Of a stretch of 64,000 nt of DNA, positions 1-13,662 are shown one piece after another. Made by a program: the position numbers and the translations under genes. The first letter of the stretch is position 1, and each line of letters opens with the position of its first letter. The notes beneath the pieces are model-generated. The model searched no databases. It was not told where the DNA came from and was given only the letters and a program-made list of their open reading frames with translations. The DNA comes from Thermoplasmata archaeon (GTDB lineage: Archaea > Thermoplasmatota > Thermoplasmata > Lutacidiplasmatales > UBA184), in assembly GCA_022750375.1 (NCBI GenBank), contig JAKIVU010000001.1, forward strand, positions 30,695-94,694. The letters are read 5' to 3'.

Positions 1-636
1 GCTCGGGTGAGCCGTGACTCCGAGGACGAGCGTCGCATCCTCCAGAACCAAGTCGACAACCTTCGGGCGTACTGCTCGAGAATCGGACTCTCCCTAACCG
101 AAGCAAACGAATTCGTCGAGATCGTTTCGGGAGGGAAGGACGACCGCCCCGAACTGAACCGTCTCCTCGCGGCCGCCAGTCTCCAACGAGGGCGGCCGTT
201 CGACGTCGTCGTGTTCACGAGCTTGAGCCGAATGACCAGGGGTGGGATCGGGAGCGCACTCTACATCCTCGACCGCCTTGCCGCCTCGAAGGTGAGCTGG
301 CACTTCGTGGATCAGCCGCTACTCAACTTCGATTCAAACACTCCAAAGCTCGCGAAGGACATCATCCTCAGCGTTCTCGCCGCCGTCGACGCGGACTACC
401 GCGACCGGATCTCCAAAGCGACGAGGGCGGCGTATCAGAGCCGAGTGAATCTTGCCGCCGGTTCCGGTACGACGGTTCGGTGGGGACGCCACAAGAAGAC
501 CTGCGTTTGCGAAAGGTGCGCGAAGCGACGCGGGGAAATGGGGTCCCCCCCTCTCCATTCTCGTCCGGGATCGGCTAAGGAAATAGGGGCTATTTCCCCG
601 ACAGCGACCCAACCCCTATCGGCTCTTCGGACGTGA
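1..636 (+). CDS. Serine recombinase (resolvase/invertase catalytic domain), 5'-truncated by window edge; Cys-containing C-terminal tail instead of an HTH
   Basis: The window opens in frame with ARVSRDSEDE (catalytic Ser context). Downstream resolvase-type motifs are IVSGGKDDRPELNRLL, VVVFTSLSRMTR and the E-helix RDRISKATRAAYQ. A C-terminal HTH is absent, which is consistent with an IS607-like or small serine recombinase whose HTH is N-terminal and upstream of the window. Confidence 0.75.
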   Translation, partial: ARVSRDSEDERRILQNQVDNLRAYCSRIGLSLTEANEFVEIVSGGKDDRPELNRLLAAASLQRGRPFDVVVFTSLSRMTRGGIGSALYILDRLAASKVSWHFVDQPLLNFDSNTPKLAKDIILSVLAAVDADYRDRISKATRAAYQSRVNLAAGSGTTVRWGRHKKTCVCERCAKRRGEMGSPPLHSRPGSAKEIGAISPTATQPLSALRT

Positions 637-890
637 TACCACCGATGGGGAACGTCTACGTCGCGGTCGGGTTCGCGGCGTTCGCGTCGGTCCTCGAGAT
701 CGTCCTCGTCGTGCTATCCGAGCCACTCTTCATCTTGGTCACGGTCGGTCTCGTACTCGTCGCGACGGACTTGCTATTCGTCAGCTGGCATCCTTACGCG
801 GTCCTCACGAGCCTCGGGATCTACATCTTCGCCGTGATCGTCGGTCTCGTCGGTTTCAGCGTGCTCGACCTCATTCTCAACGTGGTTTGA
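633..890 (+). CDS. Small hydrophobic membrane protein, hypothetical
   Basis: The 85-aa ORF is almost entirely hydrophobic (2-3 TM). Its GTG start overlaps the recombinase stop as GTGA, giving translational coupling. Confidence 0.4.
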   Translation: MIPPMGNVYVAVGFAAFASVLEIVLVVLSEPLFILVTVGLVLVATDLLFVSWHPYAVLTSLGIYIFAVIVGLVGFSVLDLILNVV

Positions 891-1255
891 GGGAGCACGA
901 AGGAACGATGAGCTTCGAAAAGGGATCCGTCCACATCGAGATCGGTTGGGCCGAACTCTCGCAAGATTCAGACCCCGAGACCAGAGTGATGCGACTCGCG
1001 ATCGACGAAATCCAGGGGAAGTTCCACTACGCCGATGACGAAGCCCAGTACGTCGCCGATGACCCGGGGTTTCAAGAGTCCTGCCGGAACGCAGTTCGTG
1101 AGGCTCGTCGCCGGCAGTATCGACTCGATCGAAAGGCTCAGCCGTTGCCGGCGGGCACCGTTCCGAACCCGGCCGCCCAGCGCTTCCGAGTCAAGATCAC
1201 TTTTCCCCGTCCCGGGACGAGAGGGATTTTTCAGAGGGTCTTGACAGAGGACTAG
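887..1255 (+). CDS. Hypothetical protein
   Basis: The ORF overlaps the upstream stop by 4 nt, with a TTG or downstream ATG (908) start. No recognisable motif. Confidence 0.3.
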   Translation: MREHEGTMSFEKGSVHIEIGWAELSQDSDPETRVMRLAIDEIQGKFHYADDEAQYVADDPGFQESCRNAVREARRRQYRLDRKAQPLPAGTVPNPAAQRFRVKITFPRPGTRGIFQRVLTED

Positions 1256-1294
1256 TTCGCCGGTACCTGTGAGCGGGACGCGATCTCCGTTCGA

Positions 1295-2230
1295 TCACTC
1301 GTCCGTCTCGGTCTCCGGCACGGACCTAATCCCCTTCGGTCCCCTGGCTCCGGCTAACGAAACGATCGCGGCTCGGTTAGCGATTTCGTAGGCCCGCTTG
1401 ATCAGTTCCGGAACGAGACCTTCGAACTCATCGATGTGTTCGCGTAACGACTTCGCGAATGCCGGAAGCGCCCGTTCGGTGGCGACCTGGACCAGGATCG
1501 ACGGCTCGGAGAAACCGATCCGCTCAACGAGGATCGAGGCGTAGCCGGGTCCGGCCTTTAGTTCGAAGTCATCACCATCGCCGAGCCGAACCTCGAACAA
1601 CTCCCCATCGAGGACGAGGACCGGGAGAACCAGTCCTCGGTTTGCGGCGCCGCCCTGTGTCGACAGAATCGCGAGAGCCGCGTCGATTACCTGAGCGACC
1701 TTATCTCGCCAGGGTTCGTCCGCCTCGGGCAAATCGTCCTTAGCCTCCCGGTCCTTTGACTTGCCGGCGTGGAATCCAACTTGCCGGATCCCGTACCCGA
1801 ATGGTGATGGGAACGTGATTAAGTTCGGCGGAACGCCCTCCTCGTCCAGGTACTCAGCGATTGCCTTCCCCATGTAGTAGGACGCCCCGGTCCAGAGCCT
1901 GGCGTCCCATTCGGCGAAGAGGCTCGAGTCCGGACCATCGTGCGGGAAGATGATCCACGGTTGGTCCGCCGAGTAGACGCACTCGAACACGCAGTTTACG
2001 GTGAACTCGACGTCGGGCGATCCCCGATGAAGGACGTCCTGCGTCCGAATGTCAATCTCGCGGAACTTGCCGGTCGACTCGCTCCGGTAGCTCGGCCACC
2101 GAGACACGTCCGAGAATCCAGCCTGCCGGAGTGTGCGAGCAGTTCGAATCTCGAGAGGATACCCGGTCTTTCTGAGCCAAGCCTCGGCCATCTTCTGCAG
2201 GTCTTCGGTCGAGGGACGCACAGTCGACAT
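1295..2230 (-). CDS. Hypothetical protein, possible restriction-endonuclease-like fold (fourth gene of a minus-strand operon)
   Basis: The 311-aa ORF has N-terminal pattern GKFREIDIRTQDV ... PDVEFTVNCVFECVYS, which resembles the D ... (D/E)xK-like beta-strand core of PD-(D/E)xK / NERD / Hjc-type nucleases without a canonical Lys. The rest is unknown. Confidence 0.45.
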   Translation of the reverse strand: MSTVRPSTEDLQKMAEAWLRKTGYPLEIRTARTLRQAGFSDVSRWPSYRSESTGKFREIDIRTQDVLHRGSPDVEFTVNCVFECVYSADQPWIIFPHDGPDSSLFAEWDARLWTGASYYMGKAIAEYLDEEGVPPNLITFPSPFGYGIRQVGFHAGKSKDREAKDDLPEADEPWRDKVAQVIDAALAILSTQGGAANRGLVLPVLVLDGELFEVRLGDGDDFELKAGPGYASILVERIGFSEPSILVQVATERALPAFAKSLREHIDEFEGLVPELIKRAYEIANRAAIVSLAGARGPKGIRSVPETETDE

Positions 2231-2317
2231 GGGTCGTGCCCGAGCCCGGAGAAGGTAGACGCCCGCATTCAGTTTGCGGGCGGCCCGTCTGTGGTAAGAA
2301 TCGGACCGTCGAGGTCG

Positions 2318-2911
2318 CTAGAGTCGAAATTTGTTGGAGACCTCTATCGGGAACGGACCCAGGTTGTACTGCCTTCCGTTGAAACTGTCGAGGTAGATGA
2401 AAATCAAAATCTCAGTAGTTCCCTCCCTCTTCGGCAATAATGAGACCTCAAGCTCCTGTTGGTCACGCCCGCTGAGAGGGAAGGTGGTGACCGGCTGATT
2501 GCTCGGGTGCAGAAGAATCTCGGCTGGCCCGAGAAGGTCTCCGTAATAGATCGCCGAAGGGTCCTTTTTCCTGGTTCGGGGAGGATCACCGTACCCCACT
2601 CCGACCGTCCTCGTTTGGCGGCCAAGGTTGTCGACCCTAAGCTGGAAGTGGACCCGTGACTGAGGGTGTACGTTCAGGTGTTTCGAGAGAACCGTAGTCC
2701 GGAGAACGTCTCCGGTACGCTCGGCCCATCTCGTTCGGAGATACTCGCCACCACCCGCCAAGATGAAAATGATGACCGAGACGATCAATCCGACGATGAA
2801 GTAAACTAAGTCAGCCGTCCCGCCCCCAAAGCTGCCAGTATCGGTCACGAGCCCACCGGATGATGGTTCAAGGAACTGGCCGGGTTCGCTTCCTGCGGGT
2901 CTTCGGAGCAC
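2318..2911 (-). CDS. Membrane-anchored hypothetical protein (N-terminal TM, extracytoplasmic C-terminal domain)
   Basis: One strong TM helix (LVYFIVGLIVSVIIFILAG) sits near the N-terminus. An alternative GTG start at 2848 would leave a 19-nt gap to the upstream gene. Confidence 0.45.
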   Translation of the reverse strand: MLRRPAGSEPGQFLEPSSGGLVTDTGSFGGGTADLVYFIVGLIVSVIIFILAGGGEYLRTRWAERTGDVLRTTVLSKHLNVHPQSRVHFQLRVDNLGRQTRTVGVGYGDPPRTRKKDPSAIYYGDLLGPAEILLHPSNQPVTTFPLSGRDQQELEVSLLPKREGTTEILIFIYLDSFNGRQYNLGPFPIEVSNKFRL

Positions 2912-3854
2912 TCGAAGGTTTCAGAGGACGGAGCGGCTTCGCCCGAGCGATGGCCCTCGCCGGTGCGGCGAAGGCCGGCTCGATCTGACTCCACGTCGCT
3001 CTGACCTTGGCCTCCACGGTAGGCTCGTCCAAGCTGGCGGTGAGTCGGTTGATCCCGTCGAACAGGTCACCCAACCCGATCACTTTTGAGATTTCGCGTA
3101 ACTCGCTCTCGTCGGGCATCGTGAACAATATTCCACCATACTTTCGGAGTCCGTCGGCTACGCCTTGAAGTGTTTTGGGAAACGGAAGCCCCTCCGGCAG
3201 CTTTTCGGGGATGCTTGTTAGCGGGGCGTCGAGTAGACTGAGGAAGACGATCGGGCGAACCGAACCCTCAGTCGTGAGCATCAGCATGGTCTTCGGGGGG
3301 AGTCTGCCATCAGCCCGAAGTAGGCCGATGGCCTTCGATAGTTGAGTCGTGTCGTCCAGCTCGACCTTCGTCATACTCTCGAGCAGGGTCCCTATCGACA
3401 GATCTGCGTCGGCAAGCGGCTCTCCGGTCTTGACCTCAGTGTGGGGAACAAGGTCAGCCGGAACGAGGAAGCCCTCGGCGGCCTCCCGCCGGAGCTTCGG
3501 AGTCAGGAACCTTGCCAGGGGCTCGTCGAGAGTCCCGGACTTCAGACTCTCGATCAGGGTCTCCTTGTCCACGCGCGCGATCCGACCGACGCCTTTCGCT
3601 TCGAGGTGGATATCTCCGGTCGGGTGGATTGAGAGTTTCAGAGGGTTCGGAACCAAACCGGGCATCATGAAGACGTAAAGACTCTCGTCGCGCGCCCGAA
3701 CAGTCTTCGTGAGTCGAAGCCCCAGTGGCGGAGAACCGTCCTTCGGCGGATTCGCCACAATCCGAAAGTCACTCTTGTCCTTGACCATCGCTTCTCCTCC
3801 CGAATCGCTACCGATCGAGACAGAACGTCGACTTGTTCTTCCGAACGATATCAT
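2868..3854 (-). CDS. Hypothetical protein with basic C-terminal tail (probable start at 3788)
   Basis: Long ORF with balanced composition. The C-terminus KPLRPLKPSSAPKTRRKRTRPVP is Lys/Arg/Pro rich. The internal Met (MVKDKSDF) at 3788 removes the overlap with the upstream gene. Confidence 0.5.
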   Translation of the reverse strand: MISFGRTSRRSVSIGSDSGGEAMVKDKSDFRIVANPPKDGSPPLGLRLTKTVRARDESLYVFMMPGLVPNPLKLSIHPTGDIHLEAKGVGRIARVDKETLIESLKSGTLDEPLARFLTPKLRREAAEGFLVPADLVPHTEVKTGEPLADADLSIGTLLESMTKVELDDTTQLSKAIGLLRADGRLPPKTMLMLTTEGSVRPIVFLSLLDAPLTSIPEKLPEGLPFPKTLQGVADGLRKYGGILFTMPDESELREISKVIGLGDLFDGINRLTASLDEPTVEAKVRATWSQIEPAFAAPARAIARAKPLRPLKPSSAPKTRRKRTRPVP

Positions 3855-4350
3855 CCGAATAATGACCTCCCCGGTTAGCCGGAGAAGCGACTACCCGGTA
3901 CGCGACGTGCCCGAACCGTTGTTCTGCGTTCCGAATCTTCGCGGTGAGATCGGGAGCCCAGTTCTTTCCTCCCCATCTCGCCGACACCTTGTTCTGCCCG
4001 CTCCTGAGCCACTCGATGACCATGCCGTCTCCTATGATCTCGAGGTTCTCGCCCGAACGAGCGGGCCGATTTTTCTCGAGTGCATAATAAACCGCGACGA
4101 AATCCGAACCCTCGTTTCCCTTCATGTACGACCCTTTGGCTGCTTGATCGAACGGAGCAAGGTCGAAGTTGACGATGTCGCTCATGGCAAGCGTGGTGTG
4201 AGACTGAAGAAACTCCCGCTCAACGGGGACGGATACAGACTCAAGCTCCGGCTCCATGGTCTCGGCCACGAAGACCATCACTCGTTCTCCGGGATCGGGG
4301 CTACCAGATGGTCCGGAGTCGACCCAAATCCGTCGTGGGCGTGGCGGCAT
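3808..4350 (-). CDS. Hypothetical cytoplasmic protein (first gene of minus-strand operon)
   Basis: 180-aa ORF with no TM. It is co-oriented and tightly spaced with the three genes downstream. Confidence 0.45.
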   Translation of the reverse strand: MPPRPRRIWVDSGPSGSPDPGERVMVFVAETMEPELESVSVPVEREFLQSHTTLAMSDIVNFDLAPFDQAAKGSYMKGNEGSDFVAVYYALEKNRPARSGENLEIIGDGMVIEWLRSGQNKVSARWGGKNWAPDLTAKIRNAEQRFGHVAYRVVASPANRGGHYSDDIVRKNKSTFCLDR

Positions 4351-4436
4351 GCTCTGACGGCGTAATCCTCGGTTGGCTATTCAAACACCCGGTCGCCGGG
4401 CGTCAAGTGCTTTAGGAGGAACCGGAGTCGGGAGGC

Positions 4437-4919
4437 ATGGATTGGGCCTCATTTGCGGAAGGGTTAGTCGCCGGGGTCCTCCTAACCACCGTAAGCGGCT
4501 TCCTCGTGAACTTTCTGCAACCGCTCGCCCTTCACTACGGGAAGAAGCTCCTCCCGTCGAAGCCGGCACAGAAGCAACAAGTGAAGGCCGAGATCGAACG
4601 CGAAGGCCCAAAGGCCGACTTCGACCTTGTCGAATCAGTAGCAAAGATTGTTGGTACCGCGCTGCAAGAGTTCGTCACAGAGATGGAACCGTTCTTCTCC
4701 GCGTGGATCCAGGCGACCAGTGGCTTCGCGACCGGCGTGAGCGCGATCGTTGTGGCCGCAGAGTTCCTCTCGGTCCTCCTGATCGGTGAGTACCTCGGCG
4801 TCGACGTTGTCGGGCTTGTGCTCGGCCTGGCCGCGAGCGTGATGGTTGTAGGGGCGATCGAAGTCGGGCTCGCAGAGCGGATGTTTCGGAAGGCGAAACT
4901 CGGACCGAACCCGAAGTAG
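4437..4919 (+). CDS. Hypothetical membrane protein
   Basis: The 160-aa ORF has an N-terminal TM and a C-terminal double TM (SAIVVAAEFLSVLLIG ... LVLGLAASVMVVGAI) with a charged middle. It immediately precedes the AAA+ gene. Confidence 0.4.
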   Translation: MDWASFAEGLVAGVLLTTVSGFLVNFLQPLALHYGKKLLPSKPAQKQQVKAEIEREGPKADFDLVESVAKIVGTALQEFVTEMEPFFSAWIQATSGFATGVSAIVVAAEFLSVLLIGEYLGVDVVGLVLGLAASVMVVGAIEVGLAERMFRKAKLGPNPK

Positions 4920-4934
4920 GACCAATTCGGCAGG

Positions 4935-5801
4935 TTGCGGGAGGACATCCAGATGAATTTCGACTTTCGACCACGGAACCTGGATGAGGTGCTGGGCCAG
5001 CCCAAGGCCGTCGCGATCCTGCGCAAGGTTGTCGCGTCGCTCAACCGGGGCGTGTCACCGTCAAACGCACTTTTCTTCGAAGGCCCGCCCGGTACCGGTA
5101 AGACTAGCACCGCGTATGCACTCGCGGGCGAGATAACGAACTCAACCGTCTGGGAGCGGAACTGTGGGGAGTCGACTGCCGTCAGTCTTCGTGAGGAGCT
5201 AGAGTCAATCGCTGGTCATCGGGACTGGAATGACGGCAACTCTCGGCTGATCGTTCTCCTTGACGAGTTCGAGCGGATCACGAAGAATGATCGGATTTCG
5301 CTTCGAAGGCCCCTCGAGCTGGCTGCCTCCCATGCACTCATTGTGATAACGGCGAACGAAGAGATTGGTGATCCCGGCCTCGAGTCTCGAACTCGGCTCG
5401 TCGAGTTTGTTCGACTTGACGATGGGGCCAGTCGCGCCCTTATCGCTCGAGTGTCCTCGCGTCTCGGTCTCCGTCCTTCGGAGGCAGCGATTCTATCCGT
5501 CATTCGGGACAGCAAAGGGGACGGGCGGGCGATTCTCGACAACATCCGAATAGTCGAAGAGGACCTCCTCGCCGAGCCCATGCCGGCACCATCTGCCGAA
5601 GAACCGCTCGGTCGGTCGAAGGGGGGTCGGAAGAGGGCCGACGTCGACGCTGAGCGATGTGCCGAGCTTCGACGACAGGGAATGTCGTGGACGCAGATTG
5701 GCAAGTCGGTGGGTCACCCGGCGTCCACGGTACGAGATCGTGTGCTCGAAAAGTACCCCGACCTAGCGGGAACCCCCTCCGGGAACCCTTCCGGAAACTA
5801 G
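4935..5801 (+). CDS. AAA+ ATPase, RFC/clamp-loader-like core fused to a C-terminal HTH domain
   Basis: Walker A is GPPGTGKTS, Walker B is IVLLDEFERI, sensor-1-like is VITANEE, and GDGRAILDNI resembles the RFC small-subunit GDMRxAxNxL motif. The C-terminal ELRRQGMSWTQIGKSVGHPASTVRDRV is a sigma-70 r4 / LuxR-like HTH. Confidence 0.7.
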   Translation: MREDIQMNFDFRPRNLDEVLGQPKAVAILRKVVASLNRGVSPSNALFFEGPPGTGKTSTAYALAGEITNSTVWERNCGESTAVSLREELESIAGHRDWNDGNSRLIVLLDEFERITKNDRISLRRPLELAASHALIVITANEEIGDPGLESRTRLVEFVRLDDGASRALIARVSSRLGLRPSEAAILSVIRDSKGDGRAILDNIRIVEEDLLAEPMPAPSAEEPLGRSKGGRKRADVDAERCAELRRQGMSWTQIGKSVGHPASTVRDRVLEKYPDLAGTPSGNPSGN

Positions 5802-5850
5802 CGAATCGGGGTTTCCGGAGGGGATTCCGGTATAGGTTTCCGGAGAGCGG
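5779..5850. repeat. Cluster of TTCCGG(A) half-palindromes including two exact GGTTTCCGGAG copies 25 bp apart
   Basis: Read directly in the sequence: tccggga(5779), ttccggaa(5789), ggtttccggag(5810-5820), ttccgg(5825), ggtttccggag(5835-5845). The cluster straddles the stop of the AAA+/HTH gene. Confidence 0.5.
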
Positions 5851-6016
5851 TCAGGCCCGCCTCCGTTCGGTCCGTTCCTTCCGGCTACGCGACGGGTCTA
5901 TCGCCTCTCGACTCTGATGTAACGTCTCACCCGGTCGGACCCCGGAGACGAGAGGACATCCGGTGAGTCGACCCTCCACGGGGAATCTGTCGATGGGGTT
6001 TCTTCCTGGCATCGAG

Positions 6017-7279
6017 CTACCTCTTCGCCGTCCGAAGGGCAACCTTCGCTCGATTGCAGAGAAGGCGGACGGCTGCGCGGGACACCCGAATTCTCTTTTC
6101 GTCAAGGAAGACCTCGACGTCACCCATCGAAAGCCTGGTCAGACCCCTCTCCTCGGCCCAAGCAACACACTCGGCGACTAGCGGTTCGATTCGGGTCCGC
6201 TCTTCTTCGGCAAGGCTCGCACTCAGGTCCATCGATAAGTCGTCTGCGATTTTCTGGACCAGAAGATCGAGAGGAGAGCCATCGTGAGGAACTCCCGGGA
6301 ATAATCCGGCCGCCGGGGCTGGTAGCTCTAACTTCGTGGAGAGGAATCGGCGGAAACCCTGTTCGATAGAGAATCGACTCGTCTCGAGCGGGCCCGGGCG
6401 CTGTTTCATCCCGGCGACGAACTCCTGAACGAACTCGTCTTTCCGAGTAGTCAGCGTCTCGAGAGCCCCCGAGTTGTCGGTATTGGGTTGCTCGTCGGCC
6501 TCTTCTTCGTCGATCCCCGCCCATTCGGCGGTCTTCAGTAAGACATGGAATTCGCCGTCAAACAGGAAGGCGAGTTCGACGAGCCAAGTCTCCCCGACGT
6601 GCTTCGCCCGCTCCGGATTCTCGTCGCCTTGACCAACTATCGCCTCGTTCAGGTATAGTACTTTGGCCCCGATCTTCTTCGCGAGAGTCAGAAATTCGGT
6701 CGCGTCCTCGCCCGACCAAGTTACAGCCTCCTCGGTCGGGAGGTTCCCTCGGAAAGGGAAGATTGGAAGCTCGGCCGCCTTACGCACATCGTCGGCGAGT
6801 TCGCTTAGGGTTCCACGATCCTTGGCCACGGTATCAAACCCGGAATGGCAGACTTCCCCTTCAAGCGCTCGGTCGGGAACTGCCCCGTCGATGACCTGGC
6901 CGCCGATACCGATGTTGAGGGCTTGGAGAAACTCGGGCGATAGACTCGAAAGGGCGAGGCGCTCAAGAGAATGCGGCTCTATCTCGACCTCAGCGTCGAC
7001 ACAGGAATCCGGCTGGACTACACGTCCCAAAAGAACGGAGGCGCTGAATGCTTCGCCCGCTCGATCATCTCCTGGATAGATGGCAACTTGCCGAAATCGA
7101 CGGTCGGCGGCGTCATGATCCACCAAACTCGCTGCCCGGATAACCTCGCAGCCGGGGATGTGACGTCGCGGACCCGATAACGGGCGGTATGAAGGTCTCG
7201 ATTGAAAACGTCGCGCGACTCGATCTCGACGATATAATCCATCGCCGGGTAGGGCGACTGGATCGTAACGTCCCACCAC
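6017..7279 (-). CDS. Hypothetical protein (start uncertain; ORF N-terminus overlaps the upstream gene by about 260 nt)
   Basis: Long ORF with acidic stretches and no recognisable motif. The true start is probably internal, since the first ~87 aa are Arg-rich and overlap ORF 7018-7809. Confidence 0.4.
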   Translation of the reverse strand: MVGRYDPVALPGDGLYRRDRVARRFQSRPSYRPLSGPRRHIPGCEVIRAASLVDHDAADRRFRQVAIYPGDDRAGEAFSASVLLGRVVQPDSCVDAEVEIEPHSLERLALSSLSPEFLQALNIGIGGQVIDGAVPDRALEGEVCHSGFDTVAKDRGTLSELADDVRKAAELPIFPFRGNLPTEEAVTWSGEDATEFLTLAKKIGAKVLYLNEAIVGQGDENPERAKHVGETWLVELAFLFDGEFHVLLKTAEWAGIDEEEADEQPNTDNSGALETLTTRKDEFVQEFVAGMKQRPGPLETSRFSIEQGFRRFLSTKLELPAPAAGLFPGVPHDGSPLDLLVQKIADDLSMDLSASLAEEERTRIEPLVAECVAWAEERGLTRLSMGDVEVFLDEKRIRVSRAAVRLLCNRAKVALRTAKR

Positions 7280-7809
7280 TCGTCCGGGTCGGGATCGAGG
7301 TACGTCCGGTATGCCCCAACAGTACCCGTCGTCGGCGCCTTGAGATTCGCCTTACGGACGAGCGCCTTTGCTTCGACAGTTTCCGGGAACATGAACCATG
7401 TAAACTTGACGTCCTTCGCGACCCCCGGTCCTAGGTTTCGAATTGCCAGTCTGGGGCCTTCCAAGCCGGGGCCAGTTGTCGGGCCAGGCGGACCGGCTCC
7501 AAGAGCTAGAGTAGCGAGCACCGGACTCGGTCGATGAGAGGCCCTGGTTGTGTCGATCGAGCTGACCGCGGAGACGAGTCCAGCGAATGCCAGCGCAAGC
7601 GTCCCGGTAGCGAGCAACGCCTCGACCTGGTCCGAGATTGAAACCGGCGGTAACCAACCCGCGGGCCAGTGCCAACCCGCATCGAGACCGAAAATCAGAG
7701 CGACAATCTGACCGATGATTGCGAGACCTAGGATCGCAGCGAACTGCGCCCGGTTTTTGTAGAGCCACTCGTCGGCTTCCCGACGACCGAGCCAATCCCA
7801 GAGTCCCAC
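7018..7809 (-). CDS. Hypothetical membrane protein
   Basis: The N-terminal region has 2-3 TM helices (FAAILGLAIIGQIVALIFGL, LATGTLALAFAGLVSAV), followed by a soluble domain. Confidence 0.45.
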   Translation of the reverse strand: MGLWDWLGRREADEWLYKNRAQFAAILGLAIIGQIVALIFGLDAGWHWPAGWLPPVSISDQVEALLATGTLALAFAGLVSAVSSIDTTRASHRPSPVLATLALGAGPPGPTTGPGLEGPRLAIRNLGPGVAKDVKFTWFMFPETVEAKALVRKANLKAPTTGTVGAYRTYLDPDPDEWWDVTIQSPYPAMDYIVEIESRDVFNRDLHTARYRVRDVTSPAARLSGQRVWWIMTPPTVDFGKLPSIQEMIERAKHSAPPFFWDV

Positions 7810-8047
7810 GTCGGCCGATTGGTGCCACCGACTTCAACCTGCCGCCGGCCTCGTCCCAGCCGAACGGAGGCGTCGGCTGTCGGAGGTGGCCGATCCGACT
7901 ACAGGGACCCGGTTTAATCCCGCACTGACCCCCAAATCGACGGCGTGGCGGGTTTTGACCCCAAAAACGGGGTGTGGGGCCCCCCGAGTCCAGAGACGAC
8001 CCCGTGTGGGTCTATTCTCGTCCCTTCCGGACCATGGGGGCCTTCGC

Positions 8048-8512
8048 TTACGGTTCGCGATTGCCGCGCTTGGCGGCCTCGTAAACGACGCCGATGATGA
8101 CAGCTGCGGCGAGCCAGCAGAGAAGCGCGAAAACGAGCGGCGAGACCCCGATTTCGGACGCGAGCCCTTCGGATAGTGTACGGTCGAACAGGAGCCAAAG
8201 TTCGATTGCGACCACCACGACGAAGACGAACGCGAAGCCGACCCAATCCGCCAGGCCCACAGACTGCCCAAGATGGATTCGAATACTGGACTTTGAAGGT
8301 ACTGTTCGATGATCGGAGGTCGTCGGGCGTTTGCAGGCCTTAGAATCGTCAGCGAGAACCTTGGGATTATGGCGGGACCGCTTTCCCGCAGTAGGAACAG
8401 AACCCGCCGGCCCTCTGGCCCCCCACTCCCCCAGGCGGGGCTGATTCGAATGGTCGGTGACGCTGCGCGAGACTTTCGCCGATGACTGGTCCCCACGGAG
8501 TTCCCGTGGCAT
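8048..8512 (-). CDS. Hypothetical membrane protein (possibly only the C-terminal about 65 aa; GTG start near 8255)
   Basis: The C-terminus has two TM helices. The 5' part overlaps the zinc-ribbon ORF in another frame, suggesting either a shorter gene or a frameshifted relic. Confidence 0.3.
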   Translation of the reverse strand: MPRELRGDQSSAKVSRSVTDHSNQPRLGEWGARGPAGSVPTAGKRSRHNPKVLADDSKACKRPTTSDHRTVPSKSSIRIHLGQSVGLADWVGFAFVFVVVVAIELWLLFDRTLSEGLASEIGVSPLVFALLCWLAAAVIIGVVYEAAKRGNREP

Positions 8513-8600
8513 TCATACGCAGAAGGAGATACCCTCGCATGGCCCGAAAGCGATTCGCGTACATTTCTAGCGGCGACACGGCCTTCAAGCTCGGCGTCAA
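8367..8600 (-). CDS. Small protein with C-terminal zinc-ribbon (GGFCSYCGKAVPP), paralog of 9241-9624 C-terminus
   Basis: The C-terminal FCSYCGK motif, and about 45 nt of DNA encoding it, is nearly identical to 9246-9294. Confidence 0.35.
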   Translation of the reverse strand: MTPSLKAVSPLEMYANRFRAMRGYLLLRMNATGTPWGPVIGESLAQRHRPFESAPPGGVGGQRAGGFCSYCGKAVPP

Positions 8601-8784
8601 GGGGATTGAGATCTACATCTCGGCCGCCGATCACCCGAACAAGAAGGAGGCAGTAGTTGGAACGCTCTTCGTCGCGAAGGCGGGGATTCGTTGGCTCCCG
8701 AAGAGAGGGAAGGCAGTCCTCAAGGGAAAGCACGTGGCGGGCTACAAAATCTCTTGGGACGAACTGACCGCGATGGTCCCGTAG
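8541..8784 (+). CDS. Hypothetical small basic protein
   Basis: MARKRFAYISSGDTAFKLGVKGIEIYISAADHPNKKEAVVG... has clean composition. ORF track entry is 8482-8784; the internal Met at 8541 is preferred. Confidence 0.35.
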
Positions 8785-8900
8785 TCGGGCCGTCCGACCC
8801 CTCCACAGAAGGGTGAACCGTCCGACGACGGAGCCGGTCCTCTGGTTCGACCTCGCGATCTAGGTATCTCCCGTTCAGCGTTCGGCGGGGATTGACGGAC

Positions 8901-9383
8901 TCACTCGTCGGGTTCTACCTTCATTCCGAGAATGTGCTTGGCGTGCCCCAGCATGACGAGAGCGCCGCCAACATCTCCGGTAGCAAAGGCTTGCTCGGCC
9001 TGAGCCAAGTATCGTCCGGCCGCCTGATACATTCGCTCCCATCCTCCGTCGTAGAGAACGGCATCGATTTTGGTCTCGAGCGTCACCATACGATGTTCGA
9101 ACTGCGTCCTTGGATCCTCGGTTTCGCGCCTCGACCGGACCATAGCTCCCCTGCTTCGGATATCGAGGGGCAACTTCAAAGAGATGTCGTTCGGCGACCC
9201 GTGCTGGACGGGCTCAGCCCGGCCGCCAGCGAGTCTAGAGTTACCGGGGCACTGGTTTGCCGCAGTAGGAGCAGAATCCACCGGCCATCTGGCCTCCAGC
9301 CCCGCACGACGGGCAAAATCGAGTTGAACCGCCGGATGGCGGCGGGGGAGGAGGAGCCGGCGACTGGTATTGCGGCGGCGCAT
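8901..9383 (-). CDS. Hypothetical protein (likely only the C-terminal ~80 aa from Met at 9140)
   Basis: The full ORF overlaps 9241-9624. The C-terminal part MVRSRRETED...GHAKHILGMKVEPDE is compositionally protein-like. Confidence 0.3.
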   Translation of the reverse strand: MRRRNTSRRLLLPRRHPAVQLDFARRAGLEARWPVDSAPTAANQCPGNSRLAGGRAEPVQHGSPNDISLKLPLDIRSRGAMVRSRRETEDPRTQFEHRMVTLETKIDAVLYDGGWERMYQAAGRYLAQAEQAFATGDVGGALVMLGHAKHILGMKVEPDE

Positions 9384-9624
9384 ACATCTGACGGTTCGCC
9401 TGAGCGGCGTTCATTGCAATCTGCTGTTGGAGGAGCATGTTGGTCTGCGCCTGTTGCTGACTCATCCTCTCGGCGTCCCCCCTCGCGGAGATCCCGGATG
9501 CGAGTAGAACGATTCCAATGATGAGTAACACAATTCCAAGCAAGATGCCGATAATAGTCACGAAGAAGACTATCCCGGCGAGCAGGAACAAAACTCCAAA
9601 GACGATTCGGACTATCCCTGCCAC
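9241..9624 (-). CDS. Membrane protein with N-terminal double TM, Gln-rich linker, poly-Pro and C-terminal zinc-ribbon
   Basis: MAGIVRIVFGVLFLLAGIVFFVTIIGILLGIVLLIIGIVLLASG then QQQAQTNMLLQQQ, then PPPPPP and CPSCG...FCSYCGKPVPR. Confidence 0.5.
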   Translation of the reverse strand: MAGIVRIVFGVLFLLAGIVFFVTIIGILLGIVLLIIGIVLLASGISARGDAERMSQQQAQTNMLLQQQIAMNAAQANRQMYAPPQYQSPAPPPPPPSGGSTRFCPSCGAGGQMAGGFCSYCGKPVPR

Positions 9625-10157
9625 GACTCCGCACCCTCGTCCCGGGTGATAATACCGTTGAGGAACCGTTCAGAGCCACCAGGTCGAATTCTCACGAGCC
9701 TCGAGAGCTCGAATCTCAGGGGCATTCGGGTGGACCGCGCAAGGCGCGAGGTCGAAGCACACCGAGCAGATGACCGGCCCGAATCTCGGGGGTCGAGGCA
9801 GAGTGGCCCTTCTCTCCTTCCCCGCCCAAGCCCTCTGGGCCTGCTCGGTATCGGACTTTCCCGATTCTTTCGGACGAGCAATACAGGTCCGAAGGCGTCC
9901 GGCGGTATGCATCTTACGCAGGTTCGCGGAAGCATTCCATCATTCAATCGGAAGTATTGCCGACGAACCGAGCCTCCGCTCTCTAAGCTGGCAGAATCGA
10001 TACCCCAGGGCTATTGTGAAGGAGGTTCGACCGCAGGGTGGCTCGGATAGCCGCTGCCCCGCATCGAGCGAACCAAAGCCTTAACGGCGCCAACAAGGAT
10101 AGGAGTCCAGCCCAGCCGGCCCGGGATCGAACGTTCCAGTGCGTGGGGGAGGTTCAG

Positions 10158-10427
10158 ATGCGCTCACCAAAACTCGCCTTTCTCATCGTATCGTGTATAG
10201 TTGTCAGCGTCGGCGTGGTGGTGTTCGTGGCGGCCTATCTCGCAGGCTGTGGGGGATCGCAGCAGACTGGCTGTCCTCCCCTAGGCTGTAACTCCGGCAC
10301 AACCGCCACTTGCGAAGCGCCACTCGTAGAGGCCGCCGGGGGCCTCCTCATCGCCTCCGGTTCCGCTATCGCCGTTTTGCTTACCGTAAGGGCGAACTGG
10401 CCACGACTCGCGCAACTCGACACCTGA
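10158..10427 (+). CDS. Small membrane/secreted Cys-rich protein
   Basis: An ATG is preceded by GGAGGT 5 nt upstream. The protein has an N-terminal TM (LAFLIVSCIVVSVGVVVFVAAYLAG), then Cys-rich CGGSQQTGCPPLGCNSGTTATC, then a second hydrophobic segment. Confidence 0.45.
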   Translation: MRSPKLAFLIVSCIVVSVGVVVFVAAYLAGCGGSQQTGCPPLGCNSGTTATCEAPLVEAAGGLLIASGSAIAVLLTVRANWPRLAQLDT

Positions 10428-10503
10428 TCGAATCAGAGTTCCACATAACACGATGTGCACCGGTAACCGGACGGCGATCTTTCAGTTTGGACCGGAGCGT
10501 CAG

Positions 10504-11925
10504 CTATGTGACGATCAAGGACCAAAACGTGAGATAAGTCTCACCGTTTGATTCGACGGCGTAGAGGGCCATGAGGTAGGTGCCAACGGCAAAACCCGAT
10601 GGCAGGCTCACTATCATCTTTGCATTTGGAAGGTAAAAGTAAGAATCTGCCTGCACAGTCGAGGATGCCGGTGAAAAGGAGACGTCACCGCAGGGGACAG
10701 AGCAGAAGTTGTATTGGTAGCTCACCGGAAAACCGTAGGAAGGGTCCGCCAACGGGTCTATCTCGGCGTCAATGACGCGAGGAGCAGTATTGCTAACCTG
10801 GACTGTAAATTCGCCGTTCCCAAACCACGTCCCGACCCACGAAGCGAAGTTTTCGTTGGAGATATTCACTTCATTGTATGGACTGTTCCAGAATGATTCA
10901 TACTGGCCCGGGAAGCCTGTCGGCGGGCTGACGCTGTATGTCGTCCAAGAAATTTGGTAGGCAGCTGAGGGAGGCGTTTGCGCGACGATTGACGTGTGTA
11001 AGTTAAACGCAGGCCATGCCTCAACAGGATTATTCCCATAATCCTCTTCGTAATCTGTAAAATCGTCCCAGGCAACGATGGGATTCCAGCACTCCTGTGT
11101 ATAGTCTGCCAACACGAAACTCGTTCCCCCGGTGTACCAGGTTCCTGATCCGATAACCGTGCCCGCACCATTGGGACCCTGAACCTGGAAGGAAACTGTG
11201 CCGCCAGAGATCGACATAGTAAACCGGTATGACTCAGAATATGCGAGTGGGCCGTACGAGAAGGAGTAGTACGTTGTAGCGCAACTCCACCACCCCACCA
11301 CGCCGAACGAGAAATATGCGCACCAGTTGCCCGTGTTGTAGCACGGACTCGAGGTCTGACTAACCGACCACTGACCGCCCTGGCTTCCCGCGCCGACGAT
11401 TCCCATCTGGTCGTAGACGTATCCATTGTCGAAAACCGAGGCGCCAATGAAAACCGTGTCACCTTCGGACGAGCTTTGTGGGGTCGTTATGTTAAAAGTC
11501 AGTTTTGTCACGTAGAAGGCCATACCGTGACTATCAAGCGACCCGAACTTCCAGTCACCAGGGCCGCCACCCGAGGTCACGGCGGACTGGCCAAGAAGAT
11601 GCGATGTGGCGGGTCCGGAGAATCTCGGCGGACCAGAATAGGCGGGAGCGACGACCGACGGACCTGTCTCGTTGTCTCCTCCATCGGCCATGGCGGTCTC
11701 CTTTCCGTGATCCAGAACTGAGGAGTTCGTTTCGAGATTTACGCGGTCAAGAGTAGAGGACTTCTCGATCCCGGAATCTGTATGGTCCGCCGAAGGAATT
11801 TGGACCGGAAAATCCCGTGCATTGCTCGCCTCGCCGTAGCCGCTACTGACGACGAAAAGCACCGCGAGCGAACAAATGGAGAGGCCCACAACTAGGGAAC
11901 GGTGCGACTTCGAACGAGCCGCCAC
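10504..11925 (-). CDS. Secreted aromatic/Ser/Thr/Gly-rich beta-type protein (speculative: glutamic-peptidase/thermopsin-like or lectin-like)
   Basis: It has an N-terminal signal/anchor (LVVGLSICSLAVLFVVSSG). 473 aa rich in W, Y, S, T, G, and it carries many N-x-S/T sequons. VAWDDFTDYEED is faintly reminiscent of the G1 peptidase WIVEDF motif, but this is unverified. Confidence 0.55.
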   Translation of the reverse strand: MAARSKSHRSLVVGLSICSLAVLFVVSSGYGEASNARDFPVQIPSADHTDSGIEKSSTLDRVNLETNSSVLDHGKETAMADGGDNETGPSVVAPAYSGPPRFSGPATSHLLGQSAVTSGGGPGDWKFGSLDSHGMAFYVTKLTFNITTPQSSSEGDTVFIGASVFDNGYVYDQMGIVGAGSQGGQWSVSQTSSPCYNTGNWCAYFSFGVVGWWSCATTYYSFSYGPLAYSESYRFTMSISGGTVSFQVQGPNGAGTVIGSGTWYTGGTSFVLADYTQECWNPIVAWDDFTDYEEDYGNNPVEAWPAFNLHTSIVAQTPPSAAYQISWTTYSVSPPTGFPGQYESFWNSPYNEVNISNENFASWVGTWFGNGEFTVQVSNTAPRVIDAEIDPLADPSYGFPVSYQYNFCSVPCGDVSFSPASSTVQADSYFYLPNAKMIVSLPSGFAVGTYLMALYAVESNGETYLTFWSLIVT

Positions 11926-12171
11926 CTGTTGGCATAGGCCTTTCGTCTATTTCAACCAATGACGAAGGGGCCGATTTTCAACGGTCTGGAGCGAAGTTCA
12001 GATACGTATGGAGTCGTGGGCACTTGACCGAGGTGGCCTTCGAGTTCGAGATCGCGGTTCGGCTTTCTTCGGAATAACAGCGCGACACCCAAACGCGGAC
12101 TGGGCATCAAAGAGCGCCACAGAAAGGCCCCGGACAGAGGTCACCGGTTTGAGTCAGGTTTAAGCGCCTTT

Positions 12172-12783
12172 GTGGGCTCCGAGAAGAATCCGGTTGTTGG
12201 GTACGGGACACCGTGCGGAACGGGGTTTAAGAACTCTATGGAGCAACAGTACCGCATGGAGTTCGCGGCGGGGTTGCATGCCCAAGAAGTGCAACGCATC
12301 TCCGCGGGCGATGCAATACGCGCCGTGCTCATCTGCCCCGACGGCGAGCAGGACGGTCGGCTGACGTTCGGCGCGCCTATTCCTGGGCGGACGAGATTGA
12401 TGAAGGAGCTATTTCTGGTGTCTCGGGAAACAGAGGTGGGCCAGGCTGGGGCATTCGGATTCGAGTTCACTCCGGGCCCTTACGGTCCCTCCTCAGTGGA
12501 GGTCCAGCATGAACTGGACCGATTGACGACCATAGGCGACGTGCTCCAGGACCCACTCGAGCGTGGGGACGGGACACTCGTTCGAATCTCCGAGAGGGGG
12601 TACGAGTGGGCCAGATCTATCTGGTCGGCGCTCCCTCCTGAAACGGCGCGTGGGTTCTACTCGATCAAATCTAGATTCAATCAGGTTCCGTATGCCGCGC
12701 TGATGTTCTACGTTTACTCTGCCTACGCAGAATTCACTGCGAATTCGAGGATCCGAGAAGAGGTCCTGGGCCCTCACGCATGA
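12172..12783 (+). CDS. Hypothetical protein with Panacea (DUF4065)-like segment; candidate antitoxin
   Basis: RLMKELFLVSRE ... FGFEFTPGPYGPSSVEVQHELDRL resembles the Panacea/SocA-like pattern (KLxKLLYxxD ... FEAWxYGPVxPEVY). The likely start is Met at 12238. It overlaps the downstream gene by 4 nt. Confidence 0.4.
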   Translation: MGSEKNPVVGYGTPCGTGFKNSMEQQYRMEFAAGLHAQEVQRISAGDAIRAVLICPDGEQDGRLTFGAPIPGRTRLMKELFLVSRETEVGQAGAFGFEFTPGPYGPSSVEVQHELDRLTTIGDVLQDPLERGDGTLVRISERGYEWARSIWSALPPETARGFYSIKSRFNQVPYAALMFYVYSAYAEFTANSRIREEVLGPHA

Positions 12784-13553
12784 CACCCCCCGACCCCGCG
12801 CTCGTCGGCGCGTTGGTCGTCGCGGCAATCGGAGTATCGGCCGACATCTATTTCCTAGGGGGTGCGAAGTTCGCCCGACAATACGAGAAGGAGAGCGAGG
12901 AGTTCTACAAGGAGAATCATCAGGTTTGCCGAGACATGGACGAACTCGCTGGCGTCAGCTTCACGAGGGCGTTGATTACTTCCGAACTTTGGAGAATCGG
13001 AACCGTGGGGACACCGGTTGGCGATCCGTCCGATGAAGAAACGAGGATTCAGGCCCTCGAGGTTAGAATTCGGCAAAGCTCAGGGAAGGTGCGGACCGAC
13101 TTGGACAATCTAACGACTCAGTTCCGGACCAGGACCGGGAACAAAGAGAAACTTGAGAAGCTGCTCTCGTTGTACGAGAAGTGCGCCGGATTGACGAAGA
13201 AGGCCTGGGCATCCTTCGCGATTCTGATCTCCGCCCTCGCAATCATGTTTGCGTGGTACGTTTCCATTCCGAATGGTGTGAATTCAACCTGGTTCGTCCT
13301 CTTGGGGTTGGCGGCATTCGTCGCGGGAGCGGTCACATTCGATGCGGCAACGGATTGGCAGCGTGACAGCGCTGCTCTAAAGAAGTGTAAGACCGAAATT
13401 AAGACAACCATTCGCACGAAGATTCACTTCCCGGAGTCAGACGTGGCGGGCCTTCAAGCACCACCTGCCGCGCCAAGGCCCGCGCCTGTGGGCGCCGTGG
13501 GACCGGCGATGGGACCGACCCCCGATTCTGGAGCCGGGAAAACCGGGCACTAG
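12780..13553 (+). CDS. Membrane protein with coiled-coil middle; candidate toxin partner
   Basis: It has an N-terminal TM (ALVGALVVAAIGVSADIYFLGGA), a charged coiled-coil, and two further TM helices (ILISALAIMFAWYVSI, FVLLGLAAFVAGAVTF). It is translationally coupled (ATGA) to the upstream ORF. Confidence 0.45.
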   Translation: MTPPDPALVGALVVAAIGVSADIYFLGGAKFARQYEKESEEFYKENHQVCRDMDELAGVSFTRALITSELWRIGTVGTPVGDPSDEETRIQALEVRIRQSSGKVRTDLDNLTTQFRTRTGNKEKLEKLLSLYEKCAGLTKKAWASFAILISALAIMFAWYVSIPNGVNSTWFVLLGLAAFVAGAVTFDAATDWQRDSAALKKCKTEIKTTIRTKIHFPESDVAGLQAPPAAPRPAPVGAVGPAMGPTPDSGAGKTGH

Positions 13554-13662
13554 GTCGGGAAGGTCAATCCCTCCCGCCGATCGACGCCTATCAGTTCTCG
13601 AGGCGCCAATTCAATCATGGCGGCGATTCACTTTAGGACTGCGAAAGCGAGACTAAGCTAAG

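What the first reader, a model, noticed from the sequence alone, without database searches (positions are those of the whole stretch)
1295..4350. Four-gene co-directional ORFan operon (cytoplasmic - basic-tailed - membrane-anchored - nuclease-like)
Four minus-strand genes sit with 19-nt or shorter gaps when internal starts are used: 3808-4350, 2868-3788, 2318-2848 and 1295-2230. None matches a family I recognise. The last contains REIDIRTQDV ... VEFTVNCVFECV, which resembles the beta-strand core of restriction-endonuclease-fold (PD-(D/E)xK/NERD/Hjc-like) proteins. The third is membrane-anchored with an outward-facing domain. A nuclease, a membrane component and two unknowns in a mobile island is the architecture expected of an uncharacterised defence or abortive-infection system.
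Basis: inference. Interest (0 to 1): 0.75.

Follow-up and report, generated by a model that had tools for sequence, protein, structure and literature searches.

The report
Four unrelated island genes, one nuclease-like
Four neighbouring genes in a foreign-looking island of a Thermoplasmata archaeon are real, and the last one has a restriction-nuclease fold, but they do not travel together in other genomes, so they look like separately acquired genes rather than one four-part defence machine.

Summary
The four minus-strand ORFs exist as described. I call them A (3808-4350), B (2868-3788), C (2318-2848) and D (1295-2230). The gaps between them are 19, 19 and 87 nt. All four have homologues, so they are genes and not strict ORFans.

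The operon-as-system idea fails its own co-occurrence test. A-relatives and B-relatives occur elsewhere without any of the other three genes. C sits next to D in only one other contig, where C is a pseudogene and D is intact. In 80 genomes, mostly bacterial, the D family has no conserved neighbour.

Relatives of A, B and D do sit in genuine archaeal defence islands (short pAgo/TIR-APAZ, GmrSD, a methyltransferase-REase fusion). Single-gene defence roles therefore remain plausible but unproven. The window's own island contains no match to a known defence system; its only PADLOC hit is to a candidate cluster (PDC-M19A). Interest is modest.

The parts
3808..4350 (-). Gene A, 180 aa, soluble, no recognisable domain. 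Conserved motifs are GxEGSD(L/F)V and GKNW(A/T)P(E/D).
   Evidence: ORF. Four homologue clusters at 45-60% identity. The alignment supports the long start at 4350. No hit in Pfam, PADLOC, PHROG, NCBIfam or PDB. Homologues sit beside transposases, an integrase and a short-pAgo/E1-E2 island, never with B, C or D.
2868..3788 (-). Gene B, 306 aa. It has a conserved N-terminal region (LRLTKTVRG.DESLY...HPTGEI.L) and an arginine/lysine-rich C-terminal tail encoded at about 2871-2945.
   Evidence: ORF. Fourteen homologues at 49-64% identity, with the start at 3788 supported. No Pfam or PDB hit. It is the only gene shared among the window, L002-L004, L005, L006 and L144.
2318..2848 (-). Gene C, 176 aa. 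One N-terminal transmembrane helix (LVYFIVGLIVSVIIFILAGG, about 2750-2809) is followed by a soluble domain that looks strand-rich from its sequence. Arginines immediately after the helix suggest the domain is cytoplasmic.
   Evidence: ORF, sequence. The only homologue is in L001 (5233-5765), at 31-43% identity and disrupted by a frameshift and an in-frame TAG. tblastn found no C-like gene in any other locus tested. Topology is an inference from the positive-inside rule.
1295..2230 (-). Gene D, 311 aa (NCBI L3J68_00190). It has an N-terminal PD-(D/E)xK nuclease-fold domain (about residues 8-150, window 1781-2209), a family-specific C-terminal beta/alpha domain and a long terminal helix (about residues 173-294, window 1349-1714).
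1976..2152 (-). Putative active-site residues of D: E27 (2150-2152), R57-E58-I-D60 (D60 at 2051-2053) and E83-C84-V85 (1976-1984). V85 occupies the position of the family's catalytic lysine.
   Evidence: Across 151 family members: E27 151/151, D60 151/151, E83 149/151, C84 151/151, K85 142/151. The nine members without lysine are D, P0002, P0023-P0028 and P0079. In the model the residues lie on helix 24-36 and strands 56-67 and 76-85.

Best explanation
These are four separate genes, not one system. They have accumulated side by side in a low-GC genomic island of a Thermoplasmata archaeon.

D is the informative gene. It is a stand-alone member of a large family of about 270-aa proteins that is mostly bacterial and covered by no curated library. 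Its N-terminal half has the PD-(D/E)xK restriction-endonuclease fold. Helix 1 carries E27, strand 2 carries R-E-x-D60 and strand 3 carries E83-C-K85. A family-specific C-terminal domain and a long helix follow.

The family as a whole most likely binds DNA and cuts it with Mg2+ held by the E/D/E triad. It probably acts alone or as a homo-oligomer, since it has no conserved partner gene.

D belongs to a small archaeal subclade in which the catalytic lysine is replaced by V, T or A, while the acidic triad stays invariant and the gene is under purifying selection. It therefore either cuts using a relocated basic residue (R29 is the candidate), or it has become a metal-dependent DNA binder that does not cut.

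A, B and D each behave as interchangeable single-gene cargo of variable or defence islands in related archaea.

Shown: gene reality, fold, motif, lack of co-occurrence, and the contexts of relatives. Inferred: DNA as the substrate, activity, any defence role, and co-transcription.
For: Genes and island:
- The island is defined by the GC drop, the serine recombinase and the Endo_dU host gene at its right edge.

D family and fold:
- The profile search found 1,239 clusters at E<=1e-3 and 188 at E<=1e-10, with full-length matches of 260-300 aa.
- Invariant or near-invariant residues are W18, G23, E27, R57, E58, D60, E83, C84, K85, P91, W92 and P203.
- The AF2 model has pLDDT 89.8.

Lysine-less subclade:
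- The subclade keeps E27, R29, R57, D60, E83 and C84 invariant.
- dN/dS is 0.13.
- All 9 members without lysine have R or K at position 29, against 76 of 142 members with lysine.

No co-occurrence:
- tblastn of every window-island protein against all fetched loci finds A alone, B alone, and C+D together only in L001.
- C in L001 is a pseudogene next to an intact D homologue.
- In 80 genome loci the best-shared neighbour of the D family occurs in 6 of 80. The Pfam content of 120 neighbours is heterogeneous and largely housekeeping.

Interchangeable cargo:
- L139 and L002 are syntenic (PDDEXK_1 80% aa identity, plus GmrSD). They carry a D-like gene and a B-like gene respectively at the equivalent position.

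Defence context of relatives:
- L002 has a PLD-helicase (1e-75), TIR-APAZ (7e-65), short pAgo (4e-165) and a GmrSD-like gene (7e-45).
- L008 has a short pAgo (2e-127), an APAZ protein and E1-E2.
- L001 has a methyltransferase (2e-60) in a fusion that also carries restriction-endonuclease domains (Pfam NA-iREase1, weak Mrr_cat).
Against: - The tight 19-nt spacing and the shared strand are what a co-transcribed unit looks like, so a lineage-specific functional link cannot be excluded by comparative data alone.
- Few independent contexts were available: 3 for A, 4 for B and 3 for the D subclade. Several contigs are short.
A very divergent C-like partner near other D genes could have been missed.
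- The C-D adjacency is conserved in L001.
- The missing lysine weakens the 'nuclease' label for D itself.
- The function of A and B remains entirely unassigned.
Confidence: 0.62

Rival explanations
1. A, B, C and D together form one new multi-component defence or abortive-infection system, made of a nuclease effector, a membrane component and two accessory proteins.
For: The four genes are co-directional with 19-, 19- and 87-nt gaps. D has a nuclease fold. C has a membrane anchor. They lie in a low-GC island with a recombinase. Relatives of A, B and D lie in defence islands.
Against: No other sequence carries the combination. A-relatives and B-relatives always occur without the others. The D family has no conserved neighbour. 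C is decayed next to an intact D in L001. A B-like gene and a D-like gene replace each other at one hotspot instead of co-occurring. D lacks the catalytic lysine.
Confidence: 0.08
2. C and D form a two-gene module. A membrane-anchored sensor or tether (C) controls the nuclease-fold protein (D).
For: C-like and D-like genes are adjacent and in the same order in the only close relative of this region, L001. Both regions also share a convergent small membrane-protein gene downstream of D: 633-890 in the window and 7962-8135 in L001.
Against: L001 and the window are 74% identical in DNA over D, so the shared order can be simple common descent. The L001 copy of C has a frameshift and an in-frame stop, while D is intact with dN/dS 0.13. 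C is only 31-43% identical where D is 73% identical. tblastn found no C-like gene in any other fetched locus, including the loci of the closest lysine-less relatives P0024 and P0025.
Confidence: 0.1
3. The genes serve the island's own life cycle as an integrated plasmid or provirus. D would be a junction-resolving or recombination nuclease (Hjc/NucS-like), and B would be a basic DNA-binding protein.
Against: A, B, C and D have no relatives in 2.9 million IMG/VR contigs. D, and a typical family member, have none in 50,697 phage records. That family member matches only 5 of 72,556 plasmid records. No viral fold match is significant. Bacterial family members are scattered singly among housekeeping genes. 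No capsid, portal or terminase gene is recognisable in the island.
Confidence: 0.12

Closest known systems
PD-(D/E)xK (restriction-endonuclease-like) superfamily, Mrr-like/AF1548-like stand-alone nucleases
   Different: D matches no Pfam model, and only 1 of the 76 family members scanned gives even a weak Mrr_cat hit. The family has its own conserved C-terminal domain (P203-V-x-V-x-D-G-x-L-F-E) and a long terminal helix. D's subclade has V, T or A in place of the lysine.
Nuclease domains of CARF/SAVED-type effectors (Can2, VC1899/Card1, NucC, Cap4) and Shedu SduA
   Different: Only the nuclease core of about 125 residues aligns. D has no CARF or SAVED sensor domain. There is no cyclase, CRISPR or CBASS gene nearby. 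Sequence identity is 9-18%.
DUF4365 (the DREN nuclease domain of SPARDA short-Argonaute systems)
   Same: UniRef labels one family member (P0047) 'DUF4365 domain-containing protein'. DUF4365 is a PD-(D/E)xK nuclease domain used in defence (PMC10810196, abstract). Relatives of A and B lie near short pAgo systems.
   Different: No family member tested hits the Pfam DUF4365 model, even at E<=10. D has no APAZ domain and no adjacent Argonaute gene.
Catalytic-lysine variants of PD-(D/E)xK enzymes such as BamHI (E-x-E) and BglII (E-x-Q). This comparison is from my own knowledge and was not tested here.
   Same: The lysine position is substituted while the acidic metal ligands are kept.
   Different: In those enzymes a polar residue replaces the lysine. 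Here the replacement is V, T or A, so a residue elsewhere would have to take over its role, or activity is lost.

Membership tests
PD-(D/E)xK nuclease superfamily (fold level) | An alpha-beta-beta-beta-alpha-beta core fold | tested here: met
PD-(D/E)xK nuclease superfamily (fold level) | Acidic metal ligands: D at the start of strand 2 and E/D on strand 3, often with a helix-1 E | tested here: met
   E27, D60 and E83 are present in D. They are found in 151/151, 151/151 and 149/151 family members, and lie on helix 24-36 and strands 56-67 and 76-85.
PD-(D/E)xK nuclease superfamily (fold level) | Catalytic lysine in the (D/E)-x-K motif | tested here: not met
   D has E83-C84-V85. The lysine is present in 142 of 151 family members but absent from D, P0002, P0023-P0028 and P0079.
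PD-(D/E)xK nuclease superfamily (fold level) | Mg2+-dependent phosphodiester cleavage | not testable with these tools
   This needs purified protein and a nuclease assay.
Pfam Mrr_cat (PF04471) / DUF4365 (PF14280) | Match to the family HMM above the gathering threshold | tested here: not met
   D gives no hit even at E<=10. One of 76 relatives gives Mrr_cat at E 0.0068, below any useful threshold. There is no DUF4365 hit.
Multi-gene anti-phage defence system (operon-level unit) | The component genes co-occur, in conserved order, across unrelated genomes | tested here: not met
   A-only, B-only and D-only loci are found. C+D occurs in one related contig only, with C decayed there.
Multi-gene anti-phage defence system (operon-level unit) | Enrichment next to known defence genes | tested here: inconclusive
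   Archaeal relatives of A, B and D lie beside short pAgo/TIR-APAZ, GmrSD, a PLD-helicase and a methyltransferase-REase fusion. However, there are few independent loci and no statistics. Neighbours of bacterial D-family genes are mostly housekeeping. The window's own island has only a PDC-M19A-like gene.
Multi-gene anti-phage defence system (operon-level unit) | Protection against viruses or plasmids when expressed | not testable with these tools
   This needs a heterologous expression and challenge assay.
Known defence-system proteins (PADLOC-DB 2.0) | Match to any PADLOC model | tested here: not met
   A, B, C and D give no hit at E<=1. Across 76 D-family members only isolated hits at E>0.002 appear.

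The most novel reading that the evidence does not exclude
The D family would be a widespread, undescribed single-gene restriction-like defence nuclease, made of a PD-(D/E)xK core plus its own conserved C-terminal domain and counting at least 1,239 clusters at 50% identity. Its Thermoplasmata subclade would work without the canonical lysine. A and B would be further new single-gene defence cassettes that swap in and out of the same hotspots, next to GmrSD and short-Argonaute systems, in archaeal defence islands.
Probability: 0.25. Interest if true: 0.55.

Novelty: new member of a known kind. Interest (0 to 1): 0.3.

Why it matters
As a four-gene defence system the finding does not hold, so its headline value is low.

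Three smaller points are left.

1. There is a large, cross-phylum family of stand-alone restriction-fold proteins that Pfam, NCBIfam and PADLOC do not cover. It would be easy to curate and to test.
2. Its archaeal branch has lost the canonical lysine but kept the acidic triad under purifying selection. That makes it a small natural experiment in active-site plasticity.
3. Three uncharacterised gene families (A, B and the D subclade) recur as cargo of Thermoplasmata variable islands, beside short Argonaute, GmrSD and restriction-modification genes. They are reasonable candidates for archaeal defence screens, an area where few systems have been tested.

Tried and rejected
- Curated libraries gave nothing for A-D: Pfam, PADLOC, PHROG and NCBIfam.
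- Sequence and profile searches against the PDB gave nothing for D, the D family, B or A.
- AlphaFold on D with only 2 sequences failed (pLDDT 31.7). It worked once 76 family members were added.
- IMG/VR scans for A, B, C and D returned no relatives.
- tblastn of D against plasmid and phage records returned none.
- The search for related loci on the 76-sequence alignment failed for lack of a conserved stretch. I redid it with subsets.
- A hairpin in the C-D spacer looked like a possible terminator or attenuator. I rejected it because its fold energy is not unusual (z -1.4). The bacterial-type promoter and terminator scan shows nothing in the intergenic gaps and does not suit archaea anyway.
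- I considered whether C, the membrane protein at 7018-7809 and the 208-aa membrane protein of L001 are paralogues. No similarity was detected.
- I considered whether the 334-aa gene upstream of P0024, or the 212-aa gene upstream of the B homologue in L005, are relatives of B or A. tblastn found no similarity.
- I considered DUF4365 membership because of a UniRef label. It was not met.
- A dN/dS estimate for the small membrane gene at 633-890 used the wrong L001 ORF and should be ignored.
Full report
**1. What is there**

The window comes from a 157-kb contig of a Thermoplasmata archaeon MAG. The last gene of the finding is NCBI L3J68_00190.

The first 13.6 kb or so are 56-61% GC, against 64-72% for the rest. 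This stretch begins with a serine recombinase at 7-636 (Resolvase, E 2e-18). It ends just before a host Endo_dU gene at 13663-14433, which is followed by archaeal ribosomal-protein genes.

All four minus-strand ORFs are present. I call them A to D.

| Gene | Window coordinates | Length |
|---|---|---|
| A | 3808-4350 | 180 aa |
| B | 2868-3788 | 306 aa |
| C | 2318-2848 | 176 aa |
| D | 1295-2230 | 311 aa |

Homologue alignments fix the starts.
- A begins at 4350. Its N-terminal 'VDSGPSG..DPG.R' stretch is conserved, so the database's 156-aa model is too short.
- B begins at 3788, behind a GGGAGGAG motif.
- C begins at GTG 2848, matching its only homologue.

The gaps are 19, 19 and 87 nt.

**2. 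The genes are real but not strictly orphans**

- None of the four hits Pfam, PADLOC, PHROGs or NCBIfam.
- A has four homologue clusters at 45-60% identity.
- B has fourteen at 49-64% identity.
- D has one close homologue, P0002, at 74% identity.
- C has one homologue, found by tblastn next to P0002.
- D against P0002 gives dN/dS 0.13.

**3. D is a restriction-endonuclease-fold protein of a large family that no library covers**

A profile built from D and P0002, run against 1.84 billion cluster representatives, found 1,239 proteins at E<=1e-3 and 188 at E<=1e-10. Most are 260-300 aa and match over their full length. A genome scan placed relatives in many bacterial phyla, including Paenibacillus, Geobacter, Sorangium, Nostoc, Nocardia, Streptomyces, Bradyrhizobium, Pseudomonas and Polaribacter.

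Across 151 members the conservation is as follows.

| Residue (D numbering) | Members with it |
|---|---|
| W18 | 145/151 |
| G23 | 150/151 |
| E27 | 151/151 |
| R57 | 148/151 |
| E58 | 146/151 |
| D60 | 151/151 |
| E83 | 149/151 |
| C84 | 151/151 |
| K85 | 142/151 |
| P91 | 148/151 |
| W92 | 148/151 |
| P203 | 148/151 |

This is the classic E...D...ExK signature.

With only two sequences AlphaFold failed (pLDDT 31.7). With 76 family members it gave a confident model (pLDDT 89.8, pTM 0.87). In that model E27 lies on helix 24-36, D60 on strand 56-67 and E83-x-85 on strand 76-85.

The family is not in Pfam. One of 76 members gives a weak Mrr_cat hit and none hits DUF4365, although UniRef gives one member a DUF4365 label. 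It is also absent from PADLOC and from the PDB by sequence. Sources call its members 'hypothetical protein'.

**4. D itself lacks the catalytic lysine**

D reads E83-C84-V85. Its closest relatives also lack the lysine: P0002, P0023-P0028 and, separately, P0079 have V, T or A at that position. At least one of them, P0024, is also from a Thermoplasmata archaeon.

Within this subclade E27, R29, R57, D60, E83 and C84 stay invariant, and selection is purifying. All nine members without lysine carry R or K at position 29, against 76 of 142 members with lysine. These nine sequences are related and represent perhaps two independent losses, so this is only a hint that a basic residue has taken over.

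Whether D cuts DNA or only binds it cannot be decided here.

**5. The four genes are not a conserved unit**

I fetched the genomic surroundings of the relatives and compared them with every protein of the window's island by tblastn.

- **A-relatives (L007-L012).** They sit beside transposases, an integrase or a short-Argonaute/E1-E2 island. None of these loci carries B, C or D.
- **B-relatives (L002-L006, L144).** B is the only gene they share with the window.
- **D's close homologue (L001).** A C-like gene precedes it, but that copy has a frameshift and an in-frame TAG. It is only 31-43% identical to C, whereas D is 73% identical and intact. A and B are absent from L001. In their place upstream is a methyltransferase fused to restriction-endonuclease domains.
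- **Lysine-less relatives P0024 and P0025.** Their loci have no C-like neighbour.
- **D family in GTDB genomes.** Among 80 loci, mostly bacterial, the most widely shared neighbour family occurs in 6 loci. Of 120 flanking proteins, the commonest Pfam family (ResIII) occurs 3 times, and most of the rest are housekeeping.

One comparison is telling. L139 and L002 are syntenic: their PDDEXK_1 proteins are 80% identical and both have a GmrSD gene. At the equivalent position L139 carries a D-like gene and L002 carries a B-like gene. This is the behaviour of alternative cargo at a hotspot, not of partners.

**6. Defence context**

Relatives do lie in real defence islands.
- L002 has a PLD-helicase (1e-75), TIR-APAZ (7e-65), short pAgo (4e-165) and a GmrSD-like gene (7e-45).
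- L008 has a short pAgo (2e-127), an APAZ protein and E1-E2.
- L139 has GmrSD and PDDEXK_1.
- L001 has the methyltransferase-REase fusion.

This is suggestive guilt by association for A, B and the D subclade as individual genes. It rests on few independent loci and has no statistics behind it.

The window's own island contains no match to a known defence system. It has an RFC-like AAA+ ATPase with an HTH domain and one match to the candidate cluster PDC-M19A at 12172-12783 (7e-8).

No relative of A-D was found in IMG/VR. D and a typical family member (P0164) have none in phage records, and P0164 matches only 5 of 72,556 plasmid records. A virion or typical plasmid-maintenance role is therefore not indicated.

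**7. C's topology**

C has one clear hydrophobic helix near its N-terminus. No K or R precedes the helix, while three or four arginines follow it, both in C and in its L001 counterpart. By the positive-inside rule the soluble domain is more likely cytoplasmic than 'outward-facing'. This is an inference, not a test.

**8. Most likely mechanism**

The D family probably acts alone or as a homo-oligomer. The long C-terminal helix at residues 255-294 is a candidate interface. It would bind DNA and hydrolyse it at a metal site formed by E27, D60 and E83, with K85 as the usual helper. The family-specific C-terminal domain would provide substrate recognition or regulation.

In D's subclade the helper lysine is gone, so there are two options: a relocated basic residue (R29) or a non-cleaving binder.

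A and B remain unassigned. B's conserved arginine-rich tail suggests nucleic-acid binding.

The fold, motif and distribution are shown. The substrate, activity and biological role are inferred.

**9. Verdict**

- The nuclease fold, the membrane anchor and the island setting are supported.
- A four-component system is not supported.
- A defence role is plausible only gene by gene.

This is a new member, and a lysine-less variant, of a known kind: the PD-(D/E)xK superfamily. The broad family is uncharacterised and would merit curation. Interest is modest.

Noticed in passing
window 3808-4350: The database gene model for A (L3J68_00205, 156 aa, start at 4278) seems too short. The 24 residues upstream, 'PRRIWVDSGPSGSPDPGERV', are conserved in three of four homologues, which supports the ATG at 4350.
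   Followed up: yes
window 1-13650: Low-GC island (56-61% against 64-72%) bounded on the right by the host Endo_dU gene (13663-14433) and then the archaeal ribosomal-protein operon from about 17.3 kb. The left end lies beyond the window, next to a serine recombinase (7-636). Most island ORFs are small membrane proteins or have no family match.
   Followed up: partly
window 4935-5801 (+): An RFC/clamp-loader-like AAA+ ATPase (NCBIfam RFC small subunit 9e-20, PHROG clamp loader 2e-18) with a C-terminal HTH domain. It is divergently placed from gene A and could be the island's replication or regulatory protein. A 33%-identical relative lies in metagenome locus L094, next to a D-family gene.
   Followed up: no
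window 12172-12783 (+): A 203-aa protein that matches the PADLOC candidate-defence model PDC-M19A (E 7e-8), more weakly a Type I specificity-subunit model, and phrog_14939. It is the only defence-library hit in the window's island.
   Followed up: no
window 9241-9624 (-) and 8367-8600 (-): Two ORFs end in nearly the same zinc-ribbon tail: '...AGGFCSYCGKPVPR' and '...AGGFCSYCGKAVPP'. The first is a membrane protein with a proline-rich linker and double zinc-ribbon hits. This may be a duplicated module or a gene remnant.
   Followed up: no
L002 4625-7501 and L008 7979-11069: Short prokaryotic Argonaute systems sit 2.5-6 kb from relatives of B and A in other metagenome contigs that carry them. 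One is TIR-APAZ plus a short pAgo (SPARTA-like). The other is an APAZ/SLFN protein plus a short pAgo.
   Followed up: partly
L002 7686-10945 and L144 1159-4607: In two contigs the B homologue keeps the same neighbours: a divergent 466-473-aa gene (53% identical between the two), a 177-217-aa gene and a convergent 91-94-aa gene. None of these is present next to B in the window, L005 or L006. The 94-aa gene also resembles the C-terminus of the 334-aa gene next to the D-like gene in L139.
   Followed up: partly
L001 3495-5216: A 573-aa fusion of an N6/N4 DNA methyltransferase with restriction-endonuclease domains (Pfam NA-iREase1, weak Mrr_cat). It occupies the position upstream of the C-D pair where the window has A and B.
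   Followed up: partly
window 2240-2290 (-): A GC-rich hairpin (GCCCGCA-N7-TGCGGGC) lies in the 87-nt C-D spacer. Its folding energy is not unusual against shuffles (z -1.4), so no function is claimed.
   Followed up: yes
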